The translations under genes and the position numbers were made by a program. Shown here in pieces: positions 4,885 through 49,741 of a stretch of 64,000 bases of DNA (its first letter is position 1; the number at the start of each line of letters is the position of its first letter). The stretch is from a virus, in the IMG/VR virus record IMGVR_UViG_3300035181_002522, positions 64,001-128,000 of that record. The stretch is one strand, 5' to 3'. A model generated the notes under the pieces. The model saw only the letters and a list, made by a program, of their open reading frames with translations, had not been told where the DNA came from and searched no databases.

Positions 4885-5190
4885 TCAGAAAAGATTAATT
4901 AAACATTCTTCGTAGTAGTCACAGAAGCCTTCGGGCCATTGACTGAGCTTGCCTTTTTTGTCTGGTTGTAAAATAGTATCTTTGAATTTGATGATAACTT
5001 TTGTATGGTCGATGATGCCTTTATTAATTGCAACACGAACTCTCTGAATAAAGAGTTCGGTACTAACAGTGACGGTAAGGTCTTCTTGGTTTGCTTTTTC
5101 TACGATGGCGTAAACTACCTCTTTTGTTTTACCATCAGGATAGGCATCACCTTCAATTGGGTCGTAAATCACCGTCAACATTTTATTCAC
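4885..5190 (-). CDS. hypothetical protein (paralog family)
   Basis: VIYDP..G...PD, TVSTEL, WPEGFCD. Confidence 0.7.
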   Translation of the reverse strand: MNKMLTVIYDPIEGDAYPDGKTKEVVYAIVEKANQEDLTVTVSTELFIQRVRVAINKGIIDHTKVIIKFKDTILQPDKKGKLSQWPEGFCDYYEECLINLF

Positions 5191-5587: not shown

Positions 5588-5987
5588 GGAGATATCTTAA
5601 CACCTTTTTAGCTTTTGTAAACTTTATTTTTGATAACTGATTAACAGTTTGGGACTATCCATTGTATAAAAAGTGTGATATTATAGAAGATACTCCGACG
5701 GTCACCACTTAAGAGAGAACTATTGTATTGAGTGGTGTCATTATAGATTTTTTAAAAATTGGAATCAATTGCAAGAATGGCATCATATTTGGGATGCTAG
5801 TTACAGTAGAATGTGCTGGAACCCTGAGTTGCTGTCATATAAAAAGGCGGATTGCATTAGTCGAAACATTAAAAGTTGAAGAATATTATGTTGAACAGTG
5901 AAAGATTAGGGATAAGTTGGTAACAGCACGTAAAGATTATCTGGAAAAAACTCAACCGGAACAAATAAGAAACATTATTGGAGATTA

Positions 5988-6323
5988 ATGGTGAACCCTG
6001 TTAAAATCAATGACATATTTCACTATCAAAAGTCTTACTATAAGGTCATTTCAGTTAAACAAATTAATCAATTTACTAAACACGAATTTTATAATGTTAT
6101 AAAGTGCAATAAAAACGGAGTTGAATTTTCAACAAAAACTAACTTTATCGCATCATTTGTAGAAAAGGCAGAGCGCTGGCGAGCTATCAAAAATGAAAAA
6201 GCATCGATGGCTAATAAAGACATCGGGGAAATGAAGCGACGAGTAAATTATCTAAAAGGCAAAATTAAAGTTTATTCTGAAGAACTTGCTGAACTTGAAG
6301 AACAGTTAAATTCAAGGCAATAA
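5988..6323 (+). CDS. hypothetical protein with C-terminal coiled coil
   Basis: ORF with GGAG RBS, converging on the capsid gene. Confidence 0.6.
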   Translation: MVNPVKINDIFHYQKSYYKVISVKQINQFTKHEFYNVIKCNKNGVEFSTKTNFIASFVEKAERWRAIKNEKASMANKDIGEMKRRVNYLKGKIKVYSEELAELEEQLNSRQ

Positions 6324-6347
6324 AAAACCCGCCGAAGCGGGTTTTTT
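6322..6347. terminator. bidirectional rho-independent terminator
   Basis: AAAAAACCCGC-CGAA-GCGGGTTTTTT between convergent genes. Confidence 0.9.
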
Positions 6348-6372
6348 GAACTTACTAACTTACGACTAACTA

Positions 6373-7584
6373 TTATTGGAAAGTTAAATTAGCAATATTA
6401 ACTCGTCCAAAATAGTCAGCTGAGTTACCTAACGATGTTGCAGTGTTGGTAAATGTAGCTTTCCCGTAACGAGTCATTAAGCTAACTTGTGGGTTGTAAG
6501 TAGTTGGATCGATGATTACGTTAGAGCTCATCAAAGGAACATATGGGCAATAGAAGTAACCGCTATCCATTTCACCATTACCACCTTTATAACCTAACAA
6601 GACTGGCTCTGAACCTTGGTCGTGGTAGATATAGGTGTAAATTTTGATAGAACCATTCAAAGTACCAATCAATTTGGTGTTGTTTGGACCTTCAAAAGAA
6701 CCACTAACTGCAGGTGCGAATACTGATTTTGAAGCAGATTGCAATACAGAAGCGATTTGAGGAGAAACAACTGCCCAATTAGCAGCGCCACGACGTGTTT
6801 TACGAGCGATTTCGTTTGCAACTTTGTTGATCAATACGCCAAGAACCGCGAAACGATCGCCAACATAGTTAGGAATACCAGTGAATGAGCCAGAAGCCAT
6901 GTCAAAGGTTTCAACTGTGCCAGCCAAACTAATCAAATCGTTAATGATTTCATTGTCAATCTCAGAAACGATCTCTGCAGAAAGAGCTGCAGTGATTTCA
7001 GCTTCCAAGTCTAAACCGTGCTGTGCAGATAAATCTTGCATAGCTTCAACAGTCCATTTAGCTTGTAACTTACGTGAACCAGCAGTAACGGTTTGTTTCA
7101 ATACTTCTAATTGCAATTGACGTCCGCCGTATGCCTCGAAATCAGAGGTAAGAGCAGCAAAACCGGTTGCAACGTTAGAACTATCTACACCACCAGAATA
7201 CCAACGTTTGGTTTTTGAGTTGTTTGAGAACACCTCGGTTGAACCACCAATGATATCTTCCGCACCAGCACCAGCAGGACTTACGTCTACGTTTTCAGAG
7301 AATAAGAAACGTAAAGAGTATGCCAAGCCAACTGGACCTTGCATTGGTTGAATACCAACAAGTTCAGTAGCAATTGTACCTGGAATGATACGACGAATCA
7401 TTGGGATAATGATTTTTTGGAAGTTACCAATTGCACCAGCTGCTGATACACCAGCTGCCGCGGTTTCCATCAAGTACTGTTTTTGGTTTTCCATCAAAGA
7501 AGCCATATAAGCTTTTTTGTTGGCAGGCAGTTCAGTCAAAAGTATTTCTTTTGTTTCTGCCCAGTTTTCAAATAAGTTTTCCAT
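6373..7584 (-). CDS. gp23: major capsid protein (T4 gp23-like)
   Basis: IPMIRR, GIQPMQGP, SRKLQAKWTVE..QDL..HGLD.EAE, FYCPYVPL, MTRYG. Confidence 0.96.
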   Translation of the reverse strand: MENLFENWAETKEILLTELPANKKAYMASLMENQKQYLMETAAAGVSAAGAIGNFQKIIIPMIRRIIPGTIATELVGIQPMQGPVGLAYSLRFLFSENVDVSPAGAGAEDIIGGSTEVFSNNSKTKRWYSGGVDSSNVATGFAALTSDFEAYGGRQLQLEVLKQTVTAGSRKLQAKWTVEAMQDLSAQHGLDLEAEITAALSAEIVSEIDNEIINDLISLAGTVETFDMASGSFTGIPNYVGDRFAVLGVLINKVANEIARKTRRGAANWAVVSPQIASVLQSASKSVFAPAVSGSFEGPNNTKLIGTLNGSIKIYTYIYHDQGSEPVLLGYKGGNGEMDSGYFYCPYVPLMSSNVIIDPTTYNPQVSLMTRYGKATFTNTATSLGNSADYFGRVNIANLTFQ

Positions 7585-7620: not shown

Positions 7621-8526
7621 TTATGAGCTAATGCCCGCAATTCGCTTGATTTGTGAAAATTCCACAGTTTTTTTATCAGAACCTTGCTCTTCAACCTTTT
7701 CTTTAATTACATCGCCAGTCGCTAAAGTTGTTTTTGGCTCTTCAACTTTAACTTCTTTAATTACTGGTTTTGGAGTTGAAGTGGCAGCATCTGTTTCTTC
7801 TCTTAAGATACGACCTATAAAATAGTTATAAGCCTCATCTAATTTTTCTGTTTCTACGTTTTGCAAAACGATAGCCATTTGTTCACGTTTTGAACCAGCC
7901 AATGGTTTTAACACTTGTTCTAATTTTTGCTCACGTACTAATAATGATTTGGCTTCTTCACTTTCAGATAAACGAGCTTCAGCATCAGCTAATTTGCTTT
8001 CTGTAGCTGCCAATTTAGTCATGATAGAATCTTCATCAATATACGATTTGCTAAATTCTGAAACAAATGCTTCAAAAACTTTGCGTCCAAATTGATTTTC
8101 TTTAACGATTTCGAGATCTTCTTTCATCTCTTCCATCTCTTCAGCTAAACGGATCTCCAAAAAGCTATCCAATTTATCAACAAGAGCGTCAATCTCTTTT
8201 TCAACTTCTTCAGCTAAACGCTGTTTCTCTTCAACTAATTTACCAGCGAATTCGGCTTCCAAATCACGGAAACGTTCAATATCGCCTTTAAGATCAGCAA
8301 GTTCGGCTTCTAGTTGTTCAGAGATGAATTTCTCTGTTTTTTCAACCAAAGCTTCACGTGCAGCAACGAATTGCTCAGCTAACTCAGCGCGTACTTCCAA
8401 AGTAACTTCCTCTCTGATTTCTTGACGAGTAGCTGCAACAGCTTCAGTCCAAGCTTCAGTGATTTCATTTTTGGTTTCTTCAGCAAGTAGCTCAGAAGAC
8501 AATAACTTTTCAAGTATTTCTTCCAT
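7621..8526 (-). CDS. gp22: prohead core scaffold protein (gp22-like)
   Basis: acidic coiled coil between protease and capsid; GRKVFEAF motif. Confidence 0.85.
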   Translation of the reverse strand: MEEILEKLLSSELLAEETKNEITEAWTEAVAATRQEIREEVTLEVRAELAEQFVAAREALVEKTEKFISEQLEAELADLKGDIERFRDLEAEFAGKLVEEKQRLAEEVEKEIDALVDKLDSFLEIRLAEEMEEMKEDLEIVKENQFGRKVFEAFVSEFSKSYIDEDSIMTKLAATESKLADAEARLSESEEAKSLLVREQKLEQVLKPLAGSKREQMAIVLQNVETEKLDEAYNYFIGRILREETDAATSTPKPVIKEVKVEEPKTTLATGDVIKEKVEEQGSDKKTVEFSQIKRIAGISS

Positions 8527-8562
8527 ACTGTTTACCCCCCATAATATACAATCAATGTTTAT

Positions 8563-9220
8563 TTATTCATTTTGAGTTTGTCTTACATAAATATTTCTAA
8601 CTGATGAATAAGCAATATTAATGCCTAAATCTATCAACCATTTATGTAAAGATCTCCAAGTCATACCAGTGTTTCTTTTTTCAACTAATTTAGTTCTTAA
8701 TTCAGGAGCAAGTTTATTATGACTTTTAGCTTGCTTTCTTACAGCTTCAGAATTTTGTTTATTTCTTCCAGTGAATGTTAAACTTCACTTTTTCGCAGCT
8801 TCTACTAATAAGCCAGGTCTATAAGTTCTTTTACAATTTTTATTTCTTGGATAAAATAAAAAGAGTTATCCTTAAAAGTTTTATTATAAAAGCCATTATT
8901 ATGACCTGATGTATCACTTCCAAAAAACCCATTTTTTTGATGCTAATGCTTGATTTATAAAATCTGGATTTTTAACAACGTTAAATTCTTTATGCAAATT
9001 GAGTTCTTTATCTAAAGCTTCTTGCCATGTTTCAAAAACATATAAAATATCAGTTTTGAATAATTGAGAATTATTTTTATCTCATCATTCCAAATAGATT
9101 TATATTTTTAGAACAAACAGAACCTTTATATCCACTTTCAACTTTAGCCACTGAAGAAGATCCAATATAATATTTTGGTAATTTACTACCAAAATATTCA
9201 GTTCTATACACACAAAACAT
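8563..9220 (-). pseudogene. decayed Seg-like GIY-YIG homing endonuclease
   Basis: MFCVYRTEYFGSKLPKYYIGSS...GYKGS...EALDKELNLHKEFNVVKNPDFINQA split by several frameshifts. Confidence 0.75.
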
Positions 9221-40914: not shown

Positions 40915-40924
40915 ACTATAAACC

Positions 40925-40978
40925 CATACAGTTTTACTTTTTATCATAAATACAAATTTAATAAAGTAAAACTGTATG
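40925..40978 (+). promoter_or_regulatory. start-codon-sequestering hairpin enclosing a late-promoter-like TAAATA
   Basis: 16-bp perfect stem CATACAGTTTTACTTT/AAAGTAAAACTGTATG that includes the HNH ATG. Confidence 0.75.
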
Positions 40979-41836
40979 GATTATCAGAAGCATTATTCCG
41001 CTCTTATTGAACGGGCCAAAAATAGAATTATTGATGGGTATACTGAACAACATCACATTATTCCAAATTGCTTTTTCAAAAACTCTTCTAGACGGAATAC
41101 AAAACATTCGTCATTTGCTGGTTGGTTAGATGGTAATCGGGATGATAAATCGAATTTAGTAAATTTGACACCAGAAGAACATTATGTTGCTCATCAATTA
41201 TTAGTTAAAATATATCCGAATAATTTAGCACTGTTATTTGCTGCTAATATGATGGGCAATACTAGAAAGGGAAATAAATGTTATGGTTGGTTAAAAAGAA
41301 AGCATTCTGATCGAATGAAAAATTTACCAATTGAAATTAGATTAAAAATTTCAAAAGCTTTAAAAGGAAGAAAAGTTTCACCAGAAACACGTCAAAAAAT
41401 TAGTAAATCTAAAAAGATCAATAATGCGATTAGAAAAAAATTGATATCAGAAGGCGTATTAGAAAAGCCTACACGCAAAACTTTCACACATTCTGAAGCC
41501 ACAAAACTTAAATTTTCTAAAAATGCTAAACAGTTACATCCAAATGGGCCCTTTTTTGGAAAAACTCATACTGAAGAAACAAAGCAAAAAATAAAACAAA
41601 GTAATACTAATTTTGTTCATACTGAAGAAACAAAAGCTTATCTTTCTGAAATTAGAAAAGGTGAAAATAACCCAATGTTTGGCTCTATTGGGACGATGGC
41701 AGGAAGAACAGGAAGTTCACACCCAGCGTTTGGATCAAAATGGTATGTTAATACTATTACTGGAGAAATTAAAAAATTTCGACCTGAAGAAATAAATACT
41801 TTGTGTATAACATGGAAACCAGGAAGAAAATTATGA
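40976..41836 (+). CDS. HNH homing endonuclease with NUMOD3 repeats
   Basis: EQHHIIP, NLVNLTPEEHYVAHQLL, repeated HTEETK, NPMFG. Confidence 0.9.
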   Translation: MDYQKHYSALIERAKNRIIDGYTEQHHIIPNCFFKNSSRRNTKHSSFAGWLDGNRDDKSNLVNLTPEEHYVAHQLLVKIYPNNLALLFAANMMGNTRKGNKCYGWLKRKHSDRMKNLPIEIRLKISKALKGRKVSPETRQKISKSKKINNAIRKKLISEGVLEKPTRKTFTHSEATKLKFSKNAKQLHPNGPFFGKTHTEETKQKIKQSNTNFVHTEETKAYLSEIRKGENNPMFGSIGTMAGRTGSSHPAFGSKWYVNTITGEIKKFRPEEINTLCITWKPGRKL

Positions 41837-42916: not shown

Positions 42917-43921
42917 ATGCTCATAGCAATAACTGGTCGAATGGCGATTGGAAAATCAACCATTATTCAAAATATGTCACTGTCAGTACCGCACGTGAAA
43001 TTTGACCTTGATAAAGCCGCGCACAAATATAGTCAAAGTGCTGATATTCAAGAATTTATTGAAAGCAATCGAAGTACTGTTGATCAGACAACCAAAGACA
43101 TTTGTTGGAAAAATATTTTTAGTGAATCAAACAAATATCGGCAGTTTTGCGCGTTATATGAACCATACCTAATAAAGGAAGTTCAGGAAATAATTCATTT
43201 TTATCAATTCAGTGACGCCATAAAGATTGTTGAAGCTTCAGCACTGTACGCATATCCAAAATTACGACAGCTGTTTGATGCTGTTATTGAACTTGGCACT
43301 ACCGCAGAATCACGAGAAGAAAATATTGAAAGTCGAGCTGATTTAGCTAATGAACGGTTTAAAGTTGAAATTGCTGACGCGCTGTACGTCTCTTGTGGCA
43401 CTGACTTTCTTAATATTGGGCTCGGAAAAAATCCAAGTATGATTCTGAGTAAGCTAATCACAAAACTCTACAGAAGATTAAATGGACAACATGTTTCTAG
43501 AGCGTATTTTTGCGGCTCATTTGAACCAATGACTATCGGCCATTATGATATTTACGAGCGGGCCTGTGAAATGTTCGATGAGGTTATCTTTGTAAAAGCT
43601 AAGAACCCCAGCAAGTCAGACACTCTCAGAGAATCGCCTAAATACTTACAGTTAGTTACTACAACCTATATTCCAACGTTGCTCAGAGGTGAGTCTGGTG
43701 TCACTAATCTAATACGTGGTGTAAGGACGGAAAAAGATTATGTCGAAGCGATAGAATGGTTTCGTTCAATTGAAATCATTGTTGGTAGTGGTAAAGTGGA
43801 ATTGATATTGTTGCCTGCTTCTAAAGAGCTTGAAAATGTAAGTTCGACCTTTGTTAGAGCTCTTGAAAAATTATCTGAAAACGATGCGAAACGGTTTATT
43901 GTGCCTAATCATTTTGCCTAA
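42917..43921 (+). CDS. coaE-coaD: dephospho-CoA kinase - phosphopantetheine adenylyltransferase fusion (CoaE-CoaD)
   Basis: N-terminal IAITGRMAIGKST P-loop and DLDK; C-terminal GSFEPMTIGH, LIRGVR, VSSTFVR. Confidence 0.8.
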   Translation: MLIAITGRMAIGKSTIIQNMSLSVPHVKFDLDKAAHKYSQSADIQEFIESNRSTVDQTTKDICWKNIFSESNKYRQFCALYEPYLIKEVQEIIHFYQFSDAIKIVEASALYAYPKLRQLFDAVIELGTTAESREENIESRADLANERFKVEIADALYVSCGTDFLNIGLGKNPSMILSKLITKLYRRLNGQHVSRAYFCGSFEPMTIGHYDIYERACEMFDEVIFVKAKNPSKSDTLRESPKYLQLVTTTYIPTLLRGESGVTNLIRGVRTEKDYVEAIEWFRSIEIIVGSGKVELILLPASKELENVSSTFVRALEKLSENDAKRFIVPNHFA

Positions 43922-44359
43922 AGACCGAAAAGAGATATAGAAATCTCTAAATGTTATTTTGCTTCTTAGCAGTCTTTAGGTATTATGATTGTTCATGTTA
44001 AATTTCTCGGGGGGAGAAGAATTATGGGAACTAAAGAATCATTTAAAAAATATAGTGGTTTTACAGAATTGGCATTATTAATAAATCTGTTCCCAGCGCT
44101 GATGACATTTTTCCTGTCGGCGATGTATAATGAATCAGCAAAAGAACGTAAAATAATGTACATTATGAAAAAATAGTGTATAATATCTTTCGTGCTGAAG
44201 CGGTAAGGAATTCAAGATGAAAGAAAATATGTTTATTCATATAGCAAAGTTGATTATGTTAATCCAATTAAAGCGCAAAGCTATGCGGTTGTAGATATAT
44301 CCATAGGATTCGTCGTTGTTATTGCTTTATTTGCAATTATAGCTACGAGGACTTGAAAA

Positions 44360-44575
44360 ATGAGTGACAGTATTTTAATGATGTTTGCTATGTTGTTAGC
44401 AATTACTTTTATTGCTAACATTGTTTTTTGTATAATTGAGCTTCATAATCTATTGAAAGCCAAAGTTCAAAAAGCACGGTTGGAAGTCGATGAACTCTTA
44501 CATTGTAAAAATAGAGAATTGGGAAAAATATTCCTAACTTTTTGGGTCCGGTACGCGAATTGGTTCAGCGGGTAA
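44360..44575 (+). CDS. small membrane protein
   Basis: TM helix, GAGG RBS; 3' end overlaps the RNA gene at 44544. Confidence 0.45.
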   Translation: MSDSILMMFAMLLAITFIANIVFCIIELHNLLKAKVQKARLEVDELLHCKNRELGKIFLTFWVRYANWFSG

Positions 44576-44674
44576 AAACGTGGTTTGCATTTTTTGTCAG
44601 TAATGACCGCTCGTAAATCGTTATCGTGTCCGTAAAACACCTGTATGTGGGTTCGAGTCCCACCCGGCCCACCA
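44544..44674 (+). ncRNA. tRNA-like RNA (GTA loop, CCA end) carrying the conserved insert module
   Basis: acceptor, D arm, T arm and CCA present; ~52-nt insert between D arm and anticodon hairpin. Confidence 0.85.
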
Positions 44675-44680
44675 AATTAT

Positions 44681-44810
44681 GACACTATAGCTCAGTTGGT
44701 AGAGCACCTAAACATCGTTTTCAATTTTTTGCTAGAAATAGCCGACTAGAAAATGGTTATCGTCATTTGGAGACACTGTATGTGGGTTCGAGTCCCACCT
44801 GCCTTCTCAA
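44681..44810 (+). ncRNA. tRNA-like RNA carrying the conserved insert module (acceptor stem decayed)
   Basis: canonical D arm AGCTCAGTTGGTAGAGC, insert module, T arm identical to that of the preceding RNA. Confidence 0.75.
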
Positions 44811-44823
44811 CTTTATTAAGCAT

Positions 44824-45162
44824 ATGCTAATTACTGTTTTAAAATCAAAGCTACATCATGTTACCGTCACTGAAGCTGATATTAATTATGTTGGTTCATG
44901 TGCAATTGATGTAGAATTATTAGAAGCTGCTGAAATTCAAGAAAATGAGCAAATTCACATCTATAATGTGAATAATGGCGAACGTTTTACCACGTATGCC
45001 ATCGCTTCTGCAATTCCTGGAATTATCTCAGTTAGGGGTTCCGCCACTAGAAAAGTAGTGGTTGGAGATACCTTGATAATTACCGCTTTTGGCCAAATTA
45101 CCAAAGGCGAAATTTATAGACCAAATATCGTTTTTGTTAATAGTAAAAATCTCATAACATAA
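44824..45162 (+). CDS. panD: aspartate 1-decarboxylase
   Basis: LKSKLH..TVTEADINYVGS (Gly-Ser autocleavage site), NVNNGERFTTYAI. Confidence 0.93.
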   Translation: MLITVLKSKLHHVTVTEADINYVGSCAIDVELLEAAEIQENEQIHIYNVNNGERFTTYAIASAIPGIISVRGSATRKVVVGDTLIITAFGQITKGEIYRPNIVFVNSKNLIT

Positions 45163-45175
45163 AAGAGGAATAGAA

Positions 45176-45940
45176 ATGCCTAAACTACATGAAGTGCTCG
45201 CAGTTGAAAAAACTCGTGCAAATGCAGCAACAAAATTGCTCGACGAAACTGCAACAAAATTTCGTAAAGAACATTTTTTTGCTGGCCACATCAAAACTTT
45301 GAGAATGCTGGCTGATAGCCCTGCGAATGCTGCTATTGAAGCTGCATCTCGCGACGACAAAGCTTTGCCAACAACCGTTCCAGAAACTCTAGAATACGCT
45401 CTGAAATTCTGGGCAGATGCTGAAGACGTTACATTCGCAAAAAATCGCACAAATCAAATCGCTAATGCTGATCTTCTGTTTCATGGCGCCGTTTTAGTTC
45501 CTAATGTTCCGGTTGACGAGTTGCTCGGCCTGGAAGTTCGTTTGGAAAAGTTGCGTCATGTTATCGATGCAATGCCAATCTTGGATGCTTCTAGAGAGTG
45601 GTCTCTTTCAAGCTCTGGTCGTAAAGGCGAATATGTTTCAGTTACTTCCGAAGTAACCTCAAAAACTGAAAAAGTTTCTACTCCGGTTATCTTGTACGAA
45701 GCAACCGATCATCATCCCGCGCAAATCCAAGTTGTTAATACCGACAAAGTCGTTGGTACCTTTACCAAACTGTTAATCTCTGGTGCTGCATCTTCAAAAC
45801 AAAAAGCAGATGCGATTTCCACCATTGACGAATTGCTGGTAGAAGTAAAACAAGCACGTCAGCGTGCTAACAGCGTTGAAATCATCAACGAAAAAATCGG
45901 TTCAACCATCACCGATCTAATTTTGGCAGCGTTTAAATAA
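45176..45940 (+). CDS. conserved helical hypothetical protein next to the double tRNA-mimic RNA
   Basis: KLHEVLAVEK, LYEATDHHPAQ, VKQARQRAN; codon usage like highly expressed genes. Confidence 0.75.
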   Translation: MPKLHEVLAVEKTRANAATKLLDETATKFRKEHFFAGHIKTLRMLADSPANAAIEAASRDDKALPTTVPETLEYALKFWADAEDVTFAKNRTNQIANADLLFHGAVLVPNVPVDELLGLEVRLEKLRHVIDAMPILDASREWSLSSSGRKGEYVSVTSEVTSKTEKVSTPVILYEATDHHPAQIQVVNTDKVVGTFTKLLISGAASSKQKADAISTIDELLVEVKQARQRANSVEIINEKIGSTITDLILAAFK

Positions 45941-46161
45941 TGAAAGAGCTATCGTTACCGCAAGGAACTAAAATTCTCTGCGGTAACGGGCATTTAGTTG
46001 CTGTATTGAATAGGTCTCTTTATCGAGGAGACACTGATTACAGTGATGCTTTTGATTATGCTGAAGGTCAAATGCTTCCAACAAAAGGTCAATTATGTCC
46101 ACTTCATTGTCATTGTGGAAGTGTATGGCTTGACAAATTTAAATGCGTTAAAATTGAATAA
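45940..46161 (+). CDS. small Cys/His-rich protein
   Basis: CGNGH, CHCG; coupled to the upstream gene. Confidence 0.55.
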   Translation: MKELSLPQGTKILCGNGHLVAVLNRSLYRGDTDYSDAFDYAEGQMLPTKGQLCPLHCHCGSVWLDKFKCVKIE

Positions 46162-46199
46162 AACAGTTTCTTTTTGAATGCTATTGTGATAATATAGCT

Positions 46200-46615
46200 T
46201 CAAGTTAAAAGTTTGAGCCATCCTTATAATTATTTTTATTTTGAAATTGCGTTAAATTGCCTGCTGGTTCGAGTCCAGCTCCACATACAGAGAGCTTAAT
46301 AAGTTTTCTGTATGTGGATAGGAGAATTGGTATATCCCAAGATCTTTAAGAACTCATATGGAGTCGATCTTGTGTAATTTAAAGTGAGCCTTTTTAATCT
46401 TCGTATCGCTCAACATACGTAGACTAGAAGTAAAGTTTTAACAACAAATACGGTCTTCTCATTCATTAAATGAGAACTGGAAGTCGCGGGTTCAAATCCC
46501 GTCCCGACGGCAATTGATTTTAGAAATAGAGTTAATTGCCGTCGGGTAGCTCAGTGGTTAGAGTGCCAGTAAAATAACATCGTCATCATCGTAGGTTGTT
46601 TGATTAAAACTTGAA
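46200..46615 (+). ncRNA. structured RNA with two circularly permuted tRNA-like domains
   Basis: T arm -> closed acceptor hairpin -> D arm at 46263-46337 and 46476-46570, each within closing stems; TG-n-TAATAT upstream. Confidence 0.85.
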
Positions 46616-46629
46616 AGAATATCATTCTT

Positions 46630-46672
46630 AATGCCCGCCTAGAATATAGGAAATTTGGACTTTGCGGGCATT
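46630..46672 (+). terminator. hairpin downstream of the double tRNA-mimic RNA
   Basis: AATGCCCGC...GCGGGCATT. Confidence 0.4.
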
Positions 46673-46844
46673 CTATAAAAGAGCTTTTAACTGAAAGTTT
46701 TTTTATAGAATGATAACATTAAGGATATAATATGTCAATATTACGAATTGCTACAGCACTTATATAAGTGCTGTATGGTTTGATGGCATACATTTTTAAT
46801 ATTGACGTTAAGAAACAAGCTGAAAAAGAAGAGAAAAAATAATT

Positions 46845-46970
46845 GCCGGTATAGTTTAATGGTAGAACTGCCAAAAAACATCGTTTACATTTTTTGTTAG
46901 CAATAACCGCTAGTAAATGGTTATCCATTCCAAGGGGAAGATCGTGGTTCGATTCCACGTGCCGGCTCCA
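46845..46970 (+). ncRNA. tRNA-Gly(TCC)-like RNA (CCA end) carrying the conserved insert module
   Basis: acceptor GCCGGTA/TGCCGGC, U discriminator, loop ATTCCAA, insert module. Confidence 0.85.
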
Positions 46971-46993
46971 CTTTTTAAGATGAGAGAATTATT

Positions 46994-47251
46994 ATGAACA
47001 TTGACAGCCATATGGCATATGATAGAAAAATATTCATTCAGCACTCTGTTGCTGAAATAGCAAAACAAGATAAAGCAGCACAAAGCGTCTTTTTGCAGCG
47101 CCTTAAAAATCTACGAATGTTTAATGATTTGTTCAATGATAATCTCCCTAAAAACAATTGGGATTTACGTTATACTGCAATGAGATGTAAGTCAACAAGG
47201 TTCATTAAGATGGATCTTGTTCTAATGCAAATTAGATACCTAATGTGTTAG
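46994..47251 (+). CDS. hypothetical protein
   Basis: ORF. Confidence 0.45.
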   Translation: MNIDSHMAYDRKIFIQHSVAEIAKQDKAAQSVFLQRLKNLRMFNDLFNDNLPKNNWDLRYTAMRCKSTRFIKMDLVLMQIRYLMC

Positions 47252-47424
47252 GCGGTAAAAGTGCGAATTATTAAAATTGTGAATGAAACAAATTTTTTTG
47301 GTTTACTTTATAATGGTACTATTGTACTATGTACAAAAGTTGAAGCTGATTATTGTGCAACAGTTAGATTTGGAAAAGCTGGGCGAATGTCGGTATTTGC
47401 AATGAGAACTAATTAGGAGCTGTT

Positions 47425-47622
47425 ATGACATTTTTGTGGTTGCTTTTCACGACAACTATTGGTGCTATTGCCGGTGGAATGGTTTATGCTTCGCCATGGA
47501 TTGGCAGTGCAATAGGATTTGTTGTTGGGTTCATTCTTAATATGATAATAAAAAGTGCTACCGGCAATTTTGGTTTTTTTGGGGAAGACCCTTTCAATTT
47601 TGATGGTGGTTATGGAGACTAA
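47425..47622 (+). CDS. small membrane protein
   Basis: two TMs, AGGAG RBS. Confidence 0.6.
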   Translation: MTFLWLLFTTTIGAIAGGMVYASPWIGSAIGFVVGFILNMIIKSATGNFGFFGEDPFNFDGGYGD

Positions 47623-47624
47623 AT

Positions 47625-48071
47625 GTGGAAATCATAATTCTAAGGTTGCCTTTTGGCTCAACTGTTAGAGATCTTGAAATCTTTATTGAACCCGCTCTAA
47701 AGGTATGCTGGTTCATCAATAAACGATCTCTGATCGACAGATTAAAGATCAAGGTTTATATTGATCGAAAAGTCGACGGCATCGAACTGCATGGTCATAT
47801 CTTTACTAAAGATGAACATCTTGGCAGACAGCTGTGTAAGAAGCTAAATGGAAAATACTTCAAAAATGAAAAACCAGTCGCGGTCAGAGAATATCAAATC
47901 CGTAGTTGGCAAAATGATCGTCGTAGACCAACTCTTGAAAAAGTTGATGTACTTGGCACTGGTTCAAGACAAGGAGAACGCCGTCGTGGAAAACAACTCG
48001 ATGAGATAACCGATGCTAACGCCAACGTGCTTTTCATTGGTGTTAAAAATTTTAATCGGAAACAATTTTAA
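47625..48071 (+). CDS. RRM-like RNA-binding protein
   Basis: IIILRLP..T..DL..F, KKLNGKYF...VAVREY..RSWQNDRR pattern. Confidence 0.6.
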   Translation: MEIIILRLPFGSTVRDLEIFIEPALKVCWFINKRSLIDRLKIKVYIDRKVDGIELHGHIFTKDEHLGRQLCKKLNGKYFKNEKPVAVREYQIRSWQNDRRRPTLEKVDVLGTGSRQGERRRGKQLDEITDANANVLFIGVKNFNRKQF

Positions 48072-48303
48072 TAGTTTACAAATCGAGAGTTTATATTATA
48101 ATAACTCTCGTATTTTTATTATAAATGAAATTTTATTTGTATTAAATTGAAAATTTACTTAATAAAAATGAGAAAAACAGATAGTTAATAGCATATTTGT
48201 TAATAGTGAAAATACCTATAATTTAATGATAGATGGCATTTTAATAATTGTAAATTTAAAATGCAAATTTAAGGGATGTTGAAAATCTACTAAATAAAAT
48301 ATC

Positions 48304-48421
48304 GGGATAGTGACGGAATTGGTATACGTACAAGACTTTTTCAAGAACTTGAAACTATTCAAGTTCTTCTGAAAATCTTGCGGCTTCGGCCATGTGGGTT
48401 CGAGTCCCACCTATCCCACCA
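48304..48421 (+). tRNA. tRNA-Leu(TAA) interrupted by a 33-nt hairpin in the anticodon
   Basis: Leu-type D loop and long variable arm, CCA; removing 48339-48371 gives loop CT-TAA-AA. Confidence 0.85.
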
Positions 48422-48978
48422 AATTTATAATGCATTTACGACAAAACCAAACATTTTAGAGTTAATAAACTCTAACAGAGATCATTTACGTCAATTAGAA
48501 AAGTTTTCTATTGGCGTTTCTGTTGTTATAATTGTCAGTGAAGATGAATACACTCCATCTATTCGTACTGCTATTGGTCATGTTATCGGATTTGCTCCAG
48601 GTCGATTGACCATTGGAGATGACATTAGAGTAATTGTTCAAACTGCAGCTGGTAGTAAACGTTCAATAACTCCAGAAAATTTAATGTTGCTGAGTGAAAC
48701 ATGAACATTATTCCACAACCACCACTCACGAGAATAATTAGAGAAGGTAGCACTAGGTTTTGTCCTTTTTTGCGGAAGTAGCTTAGTGATAAATGTTCTT
48801 GGAAAATCACAAGGATGTTTATAACCAGAGTGTCATAACTTCCACCAATTGTCTGGTAGAGCAGTTGAGGCATTAAGTACTATTGAACAAGTTAAGCAGA
48901 TTAAAGCAGATTATGATGTTAGTCTTAATGAAGCTAAGCGTATTTTTGCATGCCTTATTGAATATGTTGTTCAGAAAT

Positions 48979-49049
48979 GACCTCTAATTGGTTTACATTG
49001 AGATTCTAAAACTCATTGTGTCAGAGTTCAACTCTCTGAGACGTCACCA
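48979..49049 (+). tRNA. tRNA with amber anticodon (CTA), truncated D arm
   Basis: loop TTCTAAA, T arm CAGAG-TTCAACT-CTCTG, acceptor GACCTCT/AGACGTC, CCA. Confidence 0.6.
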
Positions 49050-49178
49050 AAATGTCACAATCAAAACAAGAATTAATTAGCCAGCTTCAACAACTTATTG
49101 ATAGTTGGACTGCGGAATTAGAATCGTTAGATGATGGCGGCAAAAGTAAAGAATTTGAACGCTTAAGAGAATTGTTAA

Positions 49179-49416
49179 ATGCAAATTACGACAATAAAAG
49201 CTAAATCTCGTAAACTAGCTTGCAGATTGGACTATTGAATTAATTGAACAAGTTCTTGAACAAGAATTGCTAGTGGAAAGTGAATTAAGAGAGAACCTTG
49301 CTGAGGAAATTAAACAAGAAATTGATAATCACATTATTGACACTATCATTTTACGAGCTGAATATGAAAGAGTTAAACATCTTACTAAAGATTGTGATAA
49401 TATAAAATCTTCTTAA
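49179..49416 (+). pseudogene. stand-alone fragment of the major capsid fold, one frameshift
   Basis: TIKAKSRKLAADWTIE...VESELRENLAEEIKQEIDNHII aligns to gp23 TVTAGSRKLQAKWTVE...LEAEITAALSAEIVSEIDNEII. Confidence 0.65.
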
Positions 49417-49432
49417 ATTATTCGAGAATCAA

Positions 49433-49741
49433 ATGATAAACGCGAATATTATTGATGTTGGCCCTGATGTTGACAGAACTCCATCTGAACATGTTCAATC
49501 AGTGTTAGCTGCCCTTAGCCAAGGCACTCGATTTAAAAATACGGTTGAACTTATTGGCTGCATAACTTCATCGATTGGGCAAATTGTTGAAAGTTTTGCA
49601 GTTGGTTGTGAATTTGTCTTCTTGGCATTTCATAACAGCGATATCGTATTTGTTCGCACTGATAACCAACTATACCATCGTATAGTTTGGTATGCCAACG
49701 AGTTAGATACTGCCGAAAAAATTGAGATAGTCATTGACTAA
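49433..49741 (+). CDS. hypothetical protein
   Basis: ORF. Confidence 0.5.
   Translation: MINANIIDVGPDVDRTPSEHVQSVLAALSQGTRFKNTVELIGCITSSIGQIVESFAVGCEFVFLAFHNSDIVFVRTDNQLYHRIVWYANELDTAEKIEIVID

What the first reader, a model, noticed from the sequence alone, without database searches (positions are those of the whole stretch)
44544..46970. Three different tRNA bodies carry the same covarying ~50-nt module between D arm and anticodon hairpin
Seen at 44544-44674, 44681-44810 and 46845-46970: A-tract, stem 1 (GGTTTGC/GTAAATC, CGTTTTC/GAAAATG, CGTTTAC/GTAAATG), ATTTTTT, a GNRA hairpin (GTCA-GTAA-TGAC, GCTA-GAAA-TAGC, GTTA-GCAA-TAAC), CG(A)CT(A/C), then invariant GTTATC. Compensatory changes in both stems indicate selected structure. 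The residual anticodon loops differ (GTA, TTG, TCC), and two RNAs have paired acceptors with CCA. The position is not a known intron site. Established: bacterial YrlA Y RNAs join a Ro60-binding stem to a permuted tRNA-like domain. Inference: these are the opposite permutation (open CCA acceptor, protein-binding stem capped by GNRA), i.e. potentially chargeable tRNA/Y-RNA chimeras.
Basis: partly seen in the sequence, partly recalled or inferred. Interest (0 to 1): 0.9.

Follow-up and report, generated by a model that had tools for sequence, protein, structure and literature searches.

The report
tRNA bodies carrying a Y-RNA handle
Three tRNA-shaped genes in the tRNA cluster of a large uncultured phage carry, on the anticodon arm, the same two-helix "handle" as the small RNA encoded beside the phage's own Ro60 gene, so they are most likely Ro60-partner Y RNAs built on an unpermuted tRNA body with a free CCA end, a format I did not find described in the papers I searched.

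Summary
All three RNAs (44544-44674, 44681-44810, 46845-46970) carry a ~52-nt module: A-tract, 9-bp P1, U-tract, short capped P2, a CG-starting joiner, the P1 partner strand, then UUAUC.

A covariance model built from it finds only these three sites in the 164-kb phage record. It also finds six more copies on three other phage or metagenome records (four separate contigs), always inside tRNA-like genes. Across the nine copies, 8 of 13 pairs show changes on both sides.

The Y-RNA reading holds:
- The phage encodes a full-length Ro60.
- A ~320-nt RNA directly upstream of that gene has the same helix / 5x7 loop / helix / UUAUC design.
- That RNA shares a 20-nt string with the handle at 44741-44761.
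- A second phage with a related Ro60 has ten or more such RNAs next to its gene, some scoring as YrlA.

Two points need correction. GNRA capping is not conserved. In several relatives an anticodon stem encloses the handle.

Ro60 binding and aminoacylation are untested. No splicing enzymes were found. Excision would not restore normal anticodon arms.

Earlier notes of this scan describe the same format in other phage genomes. Verdict: a new variant of a known kind.

The parts
44544..44674 (+). t1: tRNA-shaped RNA. Its acceptor stem pairs 44544-44550 with 44664-44670, with one mismatch. The T arm is at 44647-44663 and ACCA is encoded at 44671-44674. A hairpin with a GUA relic loop lies at 44626-44640.
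   Evidence: Not called by ARAGORN without introns, and not called as tRNA by Rfam.
44574..44625 (+). Handle of t1. Its parts are the A-tract (44574-44579), P1 5' strand (44580-44588), U-tract (44589-44595), P2 hairpin with GUAA loop (44596-44607), joiner CGCUC (44608-44612), P1 3' strand (44613-44621) and UAUC (44622-44625).
   Evidence: R1 70.8 bits, E 2e-14; coordinates.
44681..44810 (+). t2: tRNA-like RNA 6 nt downstream of t1. It has a D arm and a T arm (44782-44798) and a 3-bp hairpin with a UUG relic loop (44762-44774). It has no convincing acceptor stem and no CCA.
   Evidence: Rfam tRNA partial match 22 bits.
44708..44761 (+). Handle of t2. Its parts are P1 (44714-44722 with 44749-44757), the U-tract (44723-44730), P2 with GAAA loop (44731-44742), joiner CGACUA (44743-44748) and UAUC (44758-44761). 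Positions 44741-44761 match a 20-nt string of the RNA beside the Ro60 gene.
   Evidence: R1 58.3 bits; pattern matches with 0 expected by chance.
46845..46970 (+). t3: tRNA-shaped RNA. It has a perfect 7-bp acceptor stem (46845-46851 with 46960-46966), a D arm, a T arm (46943-46959) and an encoded UCCA end. Positions 46926-46938 keep a Gly-type UCC loop.
   Evidence: Rfam tRNA 40.6 bits with a 69-nt insertion in place of the anticodon arm.
46873..46925 (+). Handle of t3. Its parts are the A-tract (46873-46879), P1 (46880-46888 with 46913-46921), the U-tract (46889-46895), P2 with GCAA loop (46896-46907), joiner CGCUA (46908-46912) and UAUC (46922-46925).
   Evidence: R1 73.8 bits, E 4e-15.
54365..54436 (+). 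Related free-standing RNA with the same handle in the usual Y-RNA order: 11-bp terminal stem, CGCU / CUUUUUU internal loop, inner stem, UUAUC, short loop.
Evidence: z -3.1.
54807..54913 (+). Related free-standing RNA: 7-bp terminal stem, UGCU / UUUUUU loop, 9-bp inner stem, UUAUC, and a cargo that contains a T-arm-like hairpin.
   Evidence: z -4.5.
54449..54513 (+). Probable third free-standing handle RNA. The inner stem pairs 54459-54466 with 54493-54500 and is followed by UUAUC. Its outer stem is weak.
   Evidence: z -1.8; the weakest of the three.
46210..46600 (+). Context: an RNA with two circularly permuted tRNA-like domains. The second domain, at 46478-46568, matches the tRNA-like core of Rfam YrlA.
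   Evidence: YrlA 29 bits, E 3e-4, below the gathering score of 69; conserved in relative L017.

Best explanation
t1, t2 and t3 are Y RNAs, meaning partner RNAs of the phage's own Ro60 protein, built on an unpermuted tRNA body.

**The handle.** It has two helices. P2 corresponds to the terminal (Ro60-side) stem of a Y RNA, here closed by a loop. P1 corresponds to the inner stem. A roughly 5x7 internal loop joins them, with a CG-starting strand opposite a U-rich strand. UUAUC follows P1. The handle is grafted into the 5' side of the anticodon arm. The rest of the RNA keeps the D arm and T arm. In t1 and t3 it also keeps a 7-bp acceptor stem with an encoded CCA.

**Inferred course of events.**
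1. The RNAs are cut out of the tRNA-cluster transcripts like tRNAs, by RNase P and 3' trimming.
2. They fold into an L shape with the handle projecting from the anticodon end.
3. Ro60 docks on the handle.
4. The tRNA body serves as the effector-binding or protective module, as proposed for YrlA, but with an open acceptor end.

**Shown here:** the handle structure, through covariation; its homology to the RNA beside the Ro60 gene; and the presence of a bona fide Ro60 gene.

**Inferred only:** Ro60 binding, processing, and the role of the tRNA body. These RNAs are not decoding tRNAs.
For: 1. **The structure is under selection.** Nine distinct copies, on four phage or metagenome records in all, show 96% pairing in P1, 8 of 13 pairs changed on both sides, and 0 of 500 shuffles reaching this.
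2. **The phage has a Ro60.** It is a 530-aa ortholog.
3. **The RNA beside the Ro60 gene has the same design.** It lies directly upstream at G000:C1:60698-61016, minus strand. It has a 10-bp terminal stem, a CGAUC / ACUACUU internal loop, an 8-bp inner stem and UUAUC, and folds with z -3.2.
4. **That RNA and t2 are homologous.** A 20-nt stretch from its joiner to UUAUC matches t2 under a pattern with 0 chance matches expected. The opposite P1 strand is also near-identical, with one compensating U-A to A-U swap (read).
5. **A second phage shows the same design next to its Ro60 gene.** Phage G003 has a Ro60 44% identical to this one. Ten or more RNAs lie within 2.5 kb upstream of it, each with a terminal stem, a GUCGC joiner, an inner stem and UUAUC. 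Three of them match the full length of Rfam YrlA at 38-46 bits.
6. **One homolog carries the published motif exactly.** L055/L056 has the joiner GCCGAAG, which fits the GNCGAAN0-1G motif assigned to Rsr binding in YrlA (PMC4201824). All nine copies fit R-N-C-G-N-N-(N0-2)-G.
7. **The same handle occurs in the usual Y-RNA order** at 54365-54913 in this window.
8. **There is experimental precedent.** M. smegmatis YrlA is cut by RNase P and receives CCA in vivo while still bound to Rsr (PMC4201824).
9. **The phage already has normal isoacceptors.** It carries ordinary tRNA-Tyr(GUA) and tRNA-Gly(UCC), so t1 and t3 are not needed for decoding.
Against: - Nothing here shows physical binding by Ro60.
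- The three genes lie about 48 kb from the Ro60 gene, not beside it.
- The other handle-bearing records hold no Ro60 in the parts available. G001 is 35% complete and G002 is 16% complete.
- The Rfam YrlA model does not reach its threshold on any of the three. Its 22-bit match across t1/t2 rests on the T and D arms only.
- The window copies have CGCU or CGAC where YrlA has CGAA.
- P2 is only 4-6 bp. The vertebrate Ro60 site is a 7-bp helix with a bulged C (PMC4726728).
- Single-sequence folds of t1, L030, L055 and L056a prefer other pairings, including A-tract with U-tract. The z-scores of t1 and t2 are near zero.
- There are no expression data.
Confidence: 0.65

Rival explanations
1. The ~50-nt module is an intervening sequence. 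It is removed by a protein-dependent cut-and-join reaction, giving ordinary tRNAs (Tyr, Gln, Gly).
For: It sits in the anticodon arm, where tRNA introns occur. t3 keeps a perfect 7-nt AUUCCAA loop. Several relatives keep anticodon-like triplets followed by AA. Another tRNA in the cluster, at 48304-48418, carries a 36-nt hairpin insert in its anticodon loop.
Against: - At 50 nt it is far too small for a group I intron, and no intron family matched.
- No tRNA splicing endonuclease, RtcB or Rnl-type ligase was found in the held 164 kb.
- Removing it leaves non-canonical arms. t1 has C at position 33. L017, L030 and L055 have A or G at position 33. L056b keeps only 3 nt between UUAUC and the stem, so it has no anticodon at all.
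- The same module occurs in free-standing RNAs and beside the Ro60 gene, where there is nothing to splice.
- Normal tRNA-Tyr(GUA) and tRNA-Gly(UCC) are already present.
Confidence: 0.08
2. The handle is a docking or processing site for some factor other than Ro60. Candidates are the DUF7873 protein encoded between the RNAs, a host ribonuclease, or a tRNA-modifying enzyme. Its likeness to the RNA beside the Ro60 gene would then reflect a shared processing signal.
For: DUF7873 lies next to these RNAs in both G000 and G001. The joiner departs from the published CGAA motif. P2 is short. Ro60 is 48 kb away.
Against: G003 has the handle array next to Ro60 but no DUF7873. The design of terminal stem, internal loop and inner stem is that of Y RNAs. 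The copy nearest the Ro60 gene is the one most similar to t2.
Confidence: 0.17
3. These are decaying tRNA pseudogenes that happen to carry a repeated, possibly mobile, sequence with no function.
For: t2 lacks an acceptor stem. t1 and t2 share a duplicated 3' part. The anticodon arms are degenerate.
Against: Compensatory changes maintain both helices across nine copies on four records. The acceptor stems, CCA ends and T and D loops of t1, t3, L030, L055 and L056a/b are intact.
Confidence: 0.05

Closest known systems
YrlA, the tRNA-like Y RNA of bacteria and mycobacteriophages (Rfam RF02553; Chen et al. 2014, PMC4201824; structure preprint 10.1101/312249)
   Same: It joins a Ro60/Rsr-binding stem with an internal loop to a tRNA-like domain with T arm, D arm and acceptor stem. 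It is encoded in genomes that carry Ro60. The 5' strand of the binding site holds a CG-containing motif.
   Different: In YrlA the RNA ends form the Ro60-binding stem and the acceptor stem is closed by a loop. Here the ends form the acceptor stem, with CCA, and the Ro60-side stem is closed by a loop. Here the handle branches from the anticodon arm rather than continuing it. The joiner is CGCU or CGAC rather than CGAA. UUAUC is absent from the YrlA consensus. The Rfam model does not reach its threshold.
[quoted passage not shown]
   Same: The Rsr-bound RNA ends up with an open acceptor stem carrying CCA. Its authors noted it 'could potentially be aminoacylated'.
   Different: That state is reached by cleavage and leaves two RNA pieces. 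Here the open-acceptor form is encoded directly as a single chain.
Thermus phage phiLo Ro60 with Yrl1 and Yrl2 (NAR 2025, PMC12135203)
   Same: A phage-encoded Ro60 has its own stem-bulge-stem Y-like RNAs encoded upstream of the gene. This parallels the ~320-nt RNA upstream of this phage's Ro60 gene.
   Different: The paper describes no complete tRNA bodies and no dispersed copies inside a tRNA cluster. It uses a CGAA motif.
Metazoan Y RNAs and nematode stem-bulge RNAs
   Same: UUAUC lies at the 5' end of the loop directly after the upper stem (PMC4450293). The Ro60 site is a helix with bulges in the lower stem (PMC4726728). The CCG strand opposite UUG in the handle resembles the bulged-C helix.
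   Different: No Rfam Y RNA or sbRNA model matched. Those RNAs have no tRNA body. The resemblance was read from the sequences and is not a test of homology.
tmRNA and plant-virus tRNA-like structures
   Same: They have a tRNA-shaped acceptor/T module with a free CCA end joined to a non-tRNA functional module.
   Different: Those are known to be aminoacylated and act in translation or replication. No such evidence exists here, and the appended module is a Y-RNA handle.

Membership tests
Y RNA (Ro60/Rsr partner RNA, YrlA type) | A Ro60/TROVE ortholog is encoded by the same genome | tested here: met
   TROVE 142.9 bits in a 530-aa ORF at G000:C1:59069-60661, minus strand. PDB matches to Rsr 2nvo at E 8e-100 and to Xenopus Ro60 1yvp at E 2e-98.
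Y RNA (Ro60/Rsr partner RNA, YrlA type) | Encoded adjacent to the Ro60 gene | tested here: not met
   t1 to t3 lie about 48 kb from the Ro60 gene. A homologous handle RNA does lie directly upstream of it.
Y RNA (Ro60/Rsr partner RNA, YrlA type) | Stem, large internal loop and stem, with the GNCGAAN0-1G motif on the 5' strand of the Ro60-side stem (PMC4201824) | tested here: inconclusive
   The helix-loop-helix design is present and covaries. The motif is exact only in homolog L055/L056 (GCCGAAG). The window copies read ACCGCUCG, GCCGACUAG and ACCGCUAG.
Y RNA (Ro60/Rsr partner RNA, YrlA type) | Reaches the Rfam RF02553 gathering score (69 bits) | tested here: not met
   There is no match on t3. 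A 22-bit match spans the t1/t2 junction through the T and D arms only. The model expects the permuted order. It could not be run on in-silico permuted sequences with these tools.
Y RNA (Ro60/Rsr partner RNA, YrlA type) | Bound by Ro60 in vivo or in vitro | not testable with these tools
   This needs immunoprecipitation or a gel shift.
Decoding tRNA | Cloverleaf with a 5-bp anticodon stem and a 7-nt loop with U33 | tested here: not met
   ARAGORN calls none of the three without allowing introns. t1 has C33 and a 4-bp stem. t2 has a 3-bp stem. t3 needs a mismatched stem borrowed from UAUC. Relative L056b has no anticodon.
Decoding tRNA | 7-bp acceptor stem, D and T arms with the elbow nucleotides, and a CCA end | tested here: met
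   Met for t1 and t3. Rfam tRNA scores t3 at 40.6 bits. Not met for the acceptor of t2.
Intron-containing tRNA (group I or protein-spliced) | A group I core, or a splicing endonuclease plus ligase encoded by the phage | tested here: not met
   The insert is 50 nt and no intron family matched. PF01974, PF01139 and PF09414 are absent from the held 164 kb. The record is only 46% complete, so their absence is weak evidence.
Intron-containing tRNA (group I or protein-spliced) | Excision restores a canonical anticodon arm | tested here: not met
   Position 33 is C, A or G in t1, L017, L030 and L055. L056b keeps only 3 nt after UUAUC.
Metazoan Y RNA / nematode sbRNA | Match to the Rfam Y RNA or sbRNA models | tested here: not met
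   No such hits at E up to 10 on 43500-52500 or on the Ro60-adjacent RNA. Only the UUAUC position and a CCG/UUG helix end are alike.

The most novel reading that the evidence does not exclude
These are Y RNAs that stay competent for tRNA transactions: RNase P processing, CCA repair and, for some, aminoacylation through the retained acceptor stem and anticodon relics. If so, the phage could bring its Ro60 ring to factors that handle charged or uncharged tRNA. Examples are EF-Tu or the ribosome, synthetases, and host anticodon nucleases used in defence. Alternatively, the RNAs could act as Ro60-guarded decoys for such nucleases.
Probability: 0.15. Interest if true: 0.85.

Novelty: new variant of a known kind. 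Interest (0 to 1): 0.62.

Why it matters
The function of the tRNA-like domain of bacterial Y RNAs remains unsettled, and whether such RNAs ever act with an open, chargeable acceptor end has been raised only for the RNase P-cleaved YrlA of M. smegmatis. Here a phage encodes that open form directly, in several paralogs with different tRNA bodies, alongside the usual closed and minimal forms. This gives a natural set of constructs for asking what the tRNA body contributes to a Ro60 particle.

It also shows that current Y-RNA models miss a whole class of phage Ro60 partners. Some 'tRNAs with introns' called in phage tRNA arrays may in fact be Y RNAs.

Tried and rejected
- **Strict DNA patterns in IMG/VR.** The first two patterns gave nothing or only coding-sequence chance hits. 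A looser pattern gave 34 stretches, of which only L026/L045 (the L017 phage) and L030 were real.
- **Metagenome scan.** It gave 8 stretches, of which 3 were real.
- **Scan of 185,579 prokaryote genomes.** It gave 6 stretches, none real. Five are Bacteroidales intergenic look-alikes and one lies on a Balneolaceae contig.
- **GenBank phages.** blastn of 44300-48500 found only a short tRNA-like match in six Enterobacter phage records. The phage Ro60 has only about 40%-identical relatives there, mostly actinophages, so no cultured relative was available.
- **Rfam at relaxed thresholds.** It gave no ribozyme, riboswitch, intron or Y RNA family for the module. It gave none for the RNA beside the Ro60 gene either.
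- **Self-cleaving ribozyme or riboswitch.** I considered a small self-cleaving ribozyme or a preQ1-like aptamer. I dropped both for lack of any match and because the motif recurs beside Ro60.
- **Archaeal-type bulge-helix-bulge intron.** I dropped this because no 3-nt bulges flank a 4-bp helix at the junctions and no endonuclease was found.
- **Pseudoknot between the A-tract and the U-tract.** This is unlikely alongside P1, because a 0-1-nt linker would have to span 9 bp. It remains possible as an alternative fold.
- **My own scanner for UUAUC-anchored helices.** It produced several probable chance hits elsewhere in the genome. It also missed the free-standing copy at 54365, because that copy's inner stem has a mismatch.
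Full report
**What is there.** The window is bases 64001-128000 of a 164,331-base IMG/VR phage record that CheckV rates 46% complete. The region from 39 to 64 kb is a tRNA cluster. At 44544-44674 (t1), 44681-44810 (t2) and 46845-46970 (t3) lie three tRNA-like genes that share a module of about 52 nt. Each module has:
- an A-tract;
- a 9-bp helix, P1, counting G-U pairs;
- a 7-8-nt U-rich strand;
- a 4-bp hairpin, P2, capped by GUAA, GAAA or GCAA;
- a 5-6-nt strand that starts with CG;
- the P1 partner strand;
- UAUC, which read with the last base of P1 gives UUAUC.

t1 and t3 have 7-bp acceptor stems followed by an encoded CCA. t2 lies 6 nt after t1 and has no convincing acceptor stem. A strict expression finds exactly three copies in the whole record.

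**Is it more than chance?** I built covariance model R1 from six copies. It scores the three window copies at 58-74 bits (E 1e-11 to 1e-15), and nothing else in the window scores better than 16 bits. Pattern scans and R1 together found six further copies, each inside a tRNA-like gene within a phage tRNA array:
- L017:11830-11886, from a phage whose neighbouring DUF7873 protein is 74% identical to this phage's;
- two copies on IMG/VR record G002 (L030, L067);
- three copies on a 9.8-kb metagenome contig that holds 20 tRNA genes (L056; one is also on L055).

On the nine distinct copies, realigned to the model, 89.7% of cells pair and 8 of 13 pairs change on both sides. No shuffle out of 500 reaches the observed values, and sliding the partner strand drops pairing to 29-54%. 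P1 is 96% paired, with five pairs changed on both sides. One copy (L056b) has an almost entirely different P1 sequence that still pairs. The structure is therefore selected.

**Corrections to the first description.** The GNRA cap is found in only four of nine copies. The others have loops of 5-10 nt. In L055, L017, L056b and L030, a helix in the place of the anticodon stem encloses the module. In those, the handle sits in the 5' part of the anticodon loop or stem. In t1, t2 and L056a it lies between position 26 and a small hairpin, and t3 can be read either way. The stretch after UUAUC often keeps an anticodon-like triplet followed by AA: UCC, UCC, GUU, GUA, CAU. But position 33 is frequently not U, and L056b has only three bases there, so it has no anticodon.

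**What it is.** Four lines of evidence tie the module to Y RNAs.

1. The phage encodes a full-length Ro60. A 530-aa ORF at G000:C1:59069-60661 (minus strand) matches TROVE. It aligns end to end with D. radiodurans Rsr (E 8e-100) and with Xenopus and human Ro60.

2. The 494-nt gap directly upstream of that gene holds an RNA of about 320 nt at G000:C1:60698-61016. It has a 10-bp terminal stem, two G-C pairs, an internal loop of 5 nt starting CG opposite 7 nt, an 8-bp inner stem and then UUAUC. It folds with z -3.2. This is the same helix, 5x7 loop, helix, UUAUC design as the module.

3. The 20 nt from its joiner to UUAUC match t2 at 44741-44761 under one pattern, with no chance match expected. 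The other strand of the inner stem is also nearly the same, with one U-A to A-U swap.

4. Phage record G003 has a Ro60 44% identical to this one. Ten or more RNAs lie in the 2.5 kb upstream of that gene. Each has a terminal stem, a GUCGC joiner, an inner stem and UUAUC, with a cargo that is a permuted tRNA-like domain, a T arm or a short loop. Three match Rfam YrlA over its full length at 38-46 bits.

Two further observations fit. The same handle occurs in this window in the usual Y-RNA order at 54365-54436 and 54807-54913, and probably at 54449-54513. An RNA at about 46210-46600 has two permuted tRNA-like domains, one of which matches the YrlA core at 29 bits.

**Relation to published motifs.** Chen et al. 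(PMC4201824) assign Rsr binding in YrlA to GNCGAAN0-1G on the 5' strand. One homolog here (L055/L056) has exactly that, GCCGAAG. All nine copies fit R-N-C-G-N-N-(N0-2)-G. The window copies carry CGCU or CGAC instead of CGAA, so the match is partial.

UUAUC directly after the upper stem is the conserved loop motif of nematode stem-bulge RNAs, which are described as highly similar to vertebrate Y RNAs (PMC4450293). A C-C-G strand opposite U-U-G recalls the bulged-C helix of the vertebrate Ro60 site (PMC4726728). I read these resemblances from the sequences. No Rfam Y RNA model matched, so they are leads and not tests.

**How it most likely works.** In a classical YrlA, the RNA ends form the Ro60-binding stem and the acceptor stem is a closed loop (10.1101/312249). 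Here the order is circularly permuted. The ends form the acceptor stem, and the Ro60-side stem (P2) is closed by a loop. I infer three things:
- the RNAs are matured like tRNAs;
- Ro60 docks on the handle at the anticodon end;
- the tRNA body is the effector-binding or protective module.

M. smegmatis YrlA is a direct precedent. It is cleaved by RNase P and receives CCA in vivo while bound to Rsr, and its authors noted it might be aminoacylated (PMC4201824). The RNAs here encode that open state in a single chain. The phage also has ordinary tRNA-Tyr(GUA) and tRNA-Gly(UCC), so t1 and t3 are not needed for decoding.

**Rivals.**
- *Spliced intron.* This is unlikely for the reasons given under the first rival explanation: the insert is 50 nt with no intron family match, no splicing enzymes lie in the held 164 kb, excision would not restore canonical arms, and the same module occurs where there is nothing to splice.
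- *A different binding partner or a processing signal.* I cannot exclude this. DUF7873 is encoded beside these RNAs in two phages, but it is absent from G003, which has the handle array.
- *Decay products.* Covariation argues against this.

**Weak points.**
- Binding is not shown.
- The genes are 48 kb from Ro60.
- The other handle-bearing records are fragments without Ro60.
- P2 is short.
- Single-sequence folds are often not the comparative structure, though enforcing P1 costs only 0-6 kcal/mol.

**Novelty.** Four literature searches and the papers I read describe phage Ro60 with YrlA-like or stem-bulge-stem RNAs. I found no description of an unpermuted tRNA body with a Y handle on its anticodon arm. 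The handle of this type was not found in 185,579 prokaryote genomes.

Earlier notes of this same scan report the same format in other phage genomes (e1-5656175, e1-5339956, e1-5321314). I did not test those. They agree with this reading and suggest the format is widespread among Ro60-encoding large phages.

I class it as a new variant of a known kind.

Noticed in passing
L003:2140-2458 minus strand (G000:C1:60698-61016; outside the window): A ~320-nt structured RNA directly upstream of the phage Ro60 gene. It has a terminal stem, a 5x7 internal loop, an inner stem, UUAUC and a ~260-nt cargo of unknown fold. No Rfam family matched it.
   Followed up: partly
G000:C1:61800-63000 (just before the window start): A non-coding stretch of about 1.2 kb made of several long near-identical repeats. 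Each has a recurring motif of about 40 nt ending in a short hairpin-like segment. It lies between the gene upstream of Ro60 and the window. Its function is unknown.
   Followed up: no
window 48304-48418: A type-II tRNA (Rfam tRNA 45.9 bits; ARAGORN with introns calls Leu-UAA at 48304-48421) with a 33-36-nt perfect hairpin inserted in the anticodon loop. It is too small for a group I intron and lacks the Y handle.
   Followed up: no
window 46210-46600: One transcript-sized region with a promoter-like site and a terminator-like hairpin holds two circularly permuted tRNA-like domains. The second matches the YrlA core (29 bits). The arrangement is conserved in L017:11270-11640, where UUAUC precedes each domain.
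   Followed up: partly
L076/L071 (G003:C1:51000-53330): An array of ten or more Y-type RNAs upstream of a phage Ro60 gene. All carry GGGUCGC on the 5' side, UUAUC after the inner stem, and C(U)UUAUCC before the closing strand.
   Followed up: partly
L056 (whole 9.8-kb contig): Twenty tRNA genes in 9.8 kb. Three carry the Y handle (4981-5107, 5912-6039, about 6457-6597). Two more have other long inserts (6234-6351 and 8499-8685).
   Followed up: partly
L017:7219-7345: A tRNA-like RNA whose anticodon arm is replaced by a second, nested T-arm-like hairpin.
   Followed up: no
window 45176-45940: A 254-aa DUF7873 protein (233 bits) sits between the handle-bearing RNAs and the double permuted RNA. 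It is 74% identical in phage G001 at the same position and absent from G003. It has no PDB or PHROG match.
   Followed up: partly
window 50636-50700: An apparent 5' half of a tRNA (acceptor strand, D arm, anticodon arm) without a T arm, just upstream of tRNA-Pro.
   Followed up: no
window 40924-40985: A long nested hairpin followed by AUUAUC, immediately upstream of and overlapping the start of a NUMOD3 homing-endonuclease-like ORF (40976-41836). It may be chance.
   Followed up: no
window 44574-44595, 46873-46895 and homologs: The A-tract before P1 and the U-tract after its 5' strand are both conserved and could pair with each other instead of P1 forming. MFE folds of L030, L055 and L056a choose this pairing. 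It is a possible alternative conformation.
   Followed up: partly
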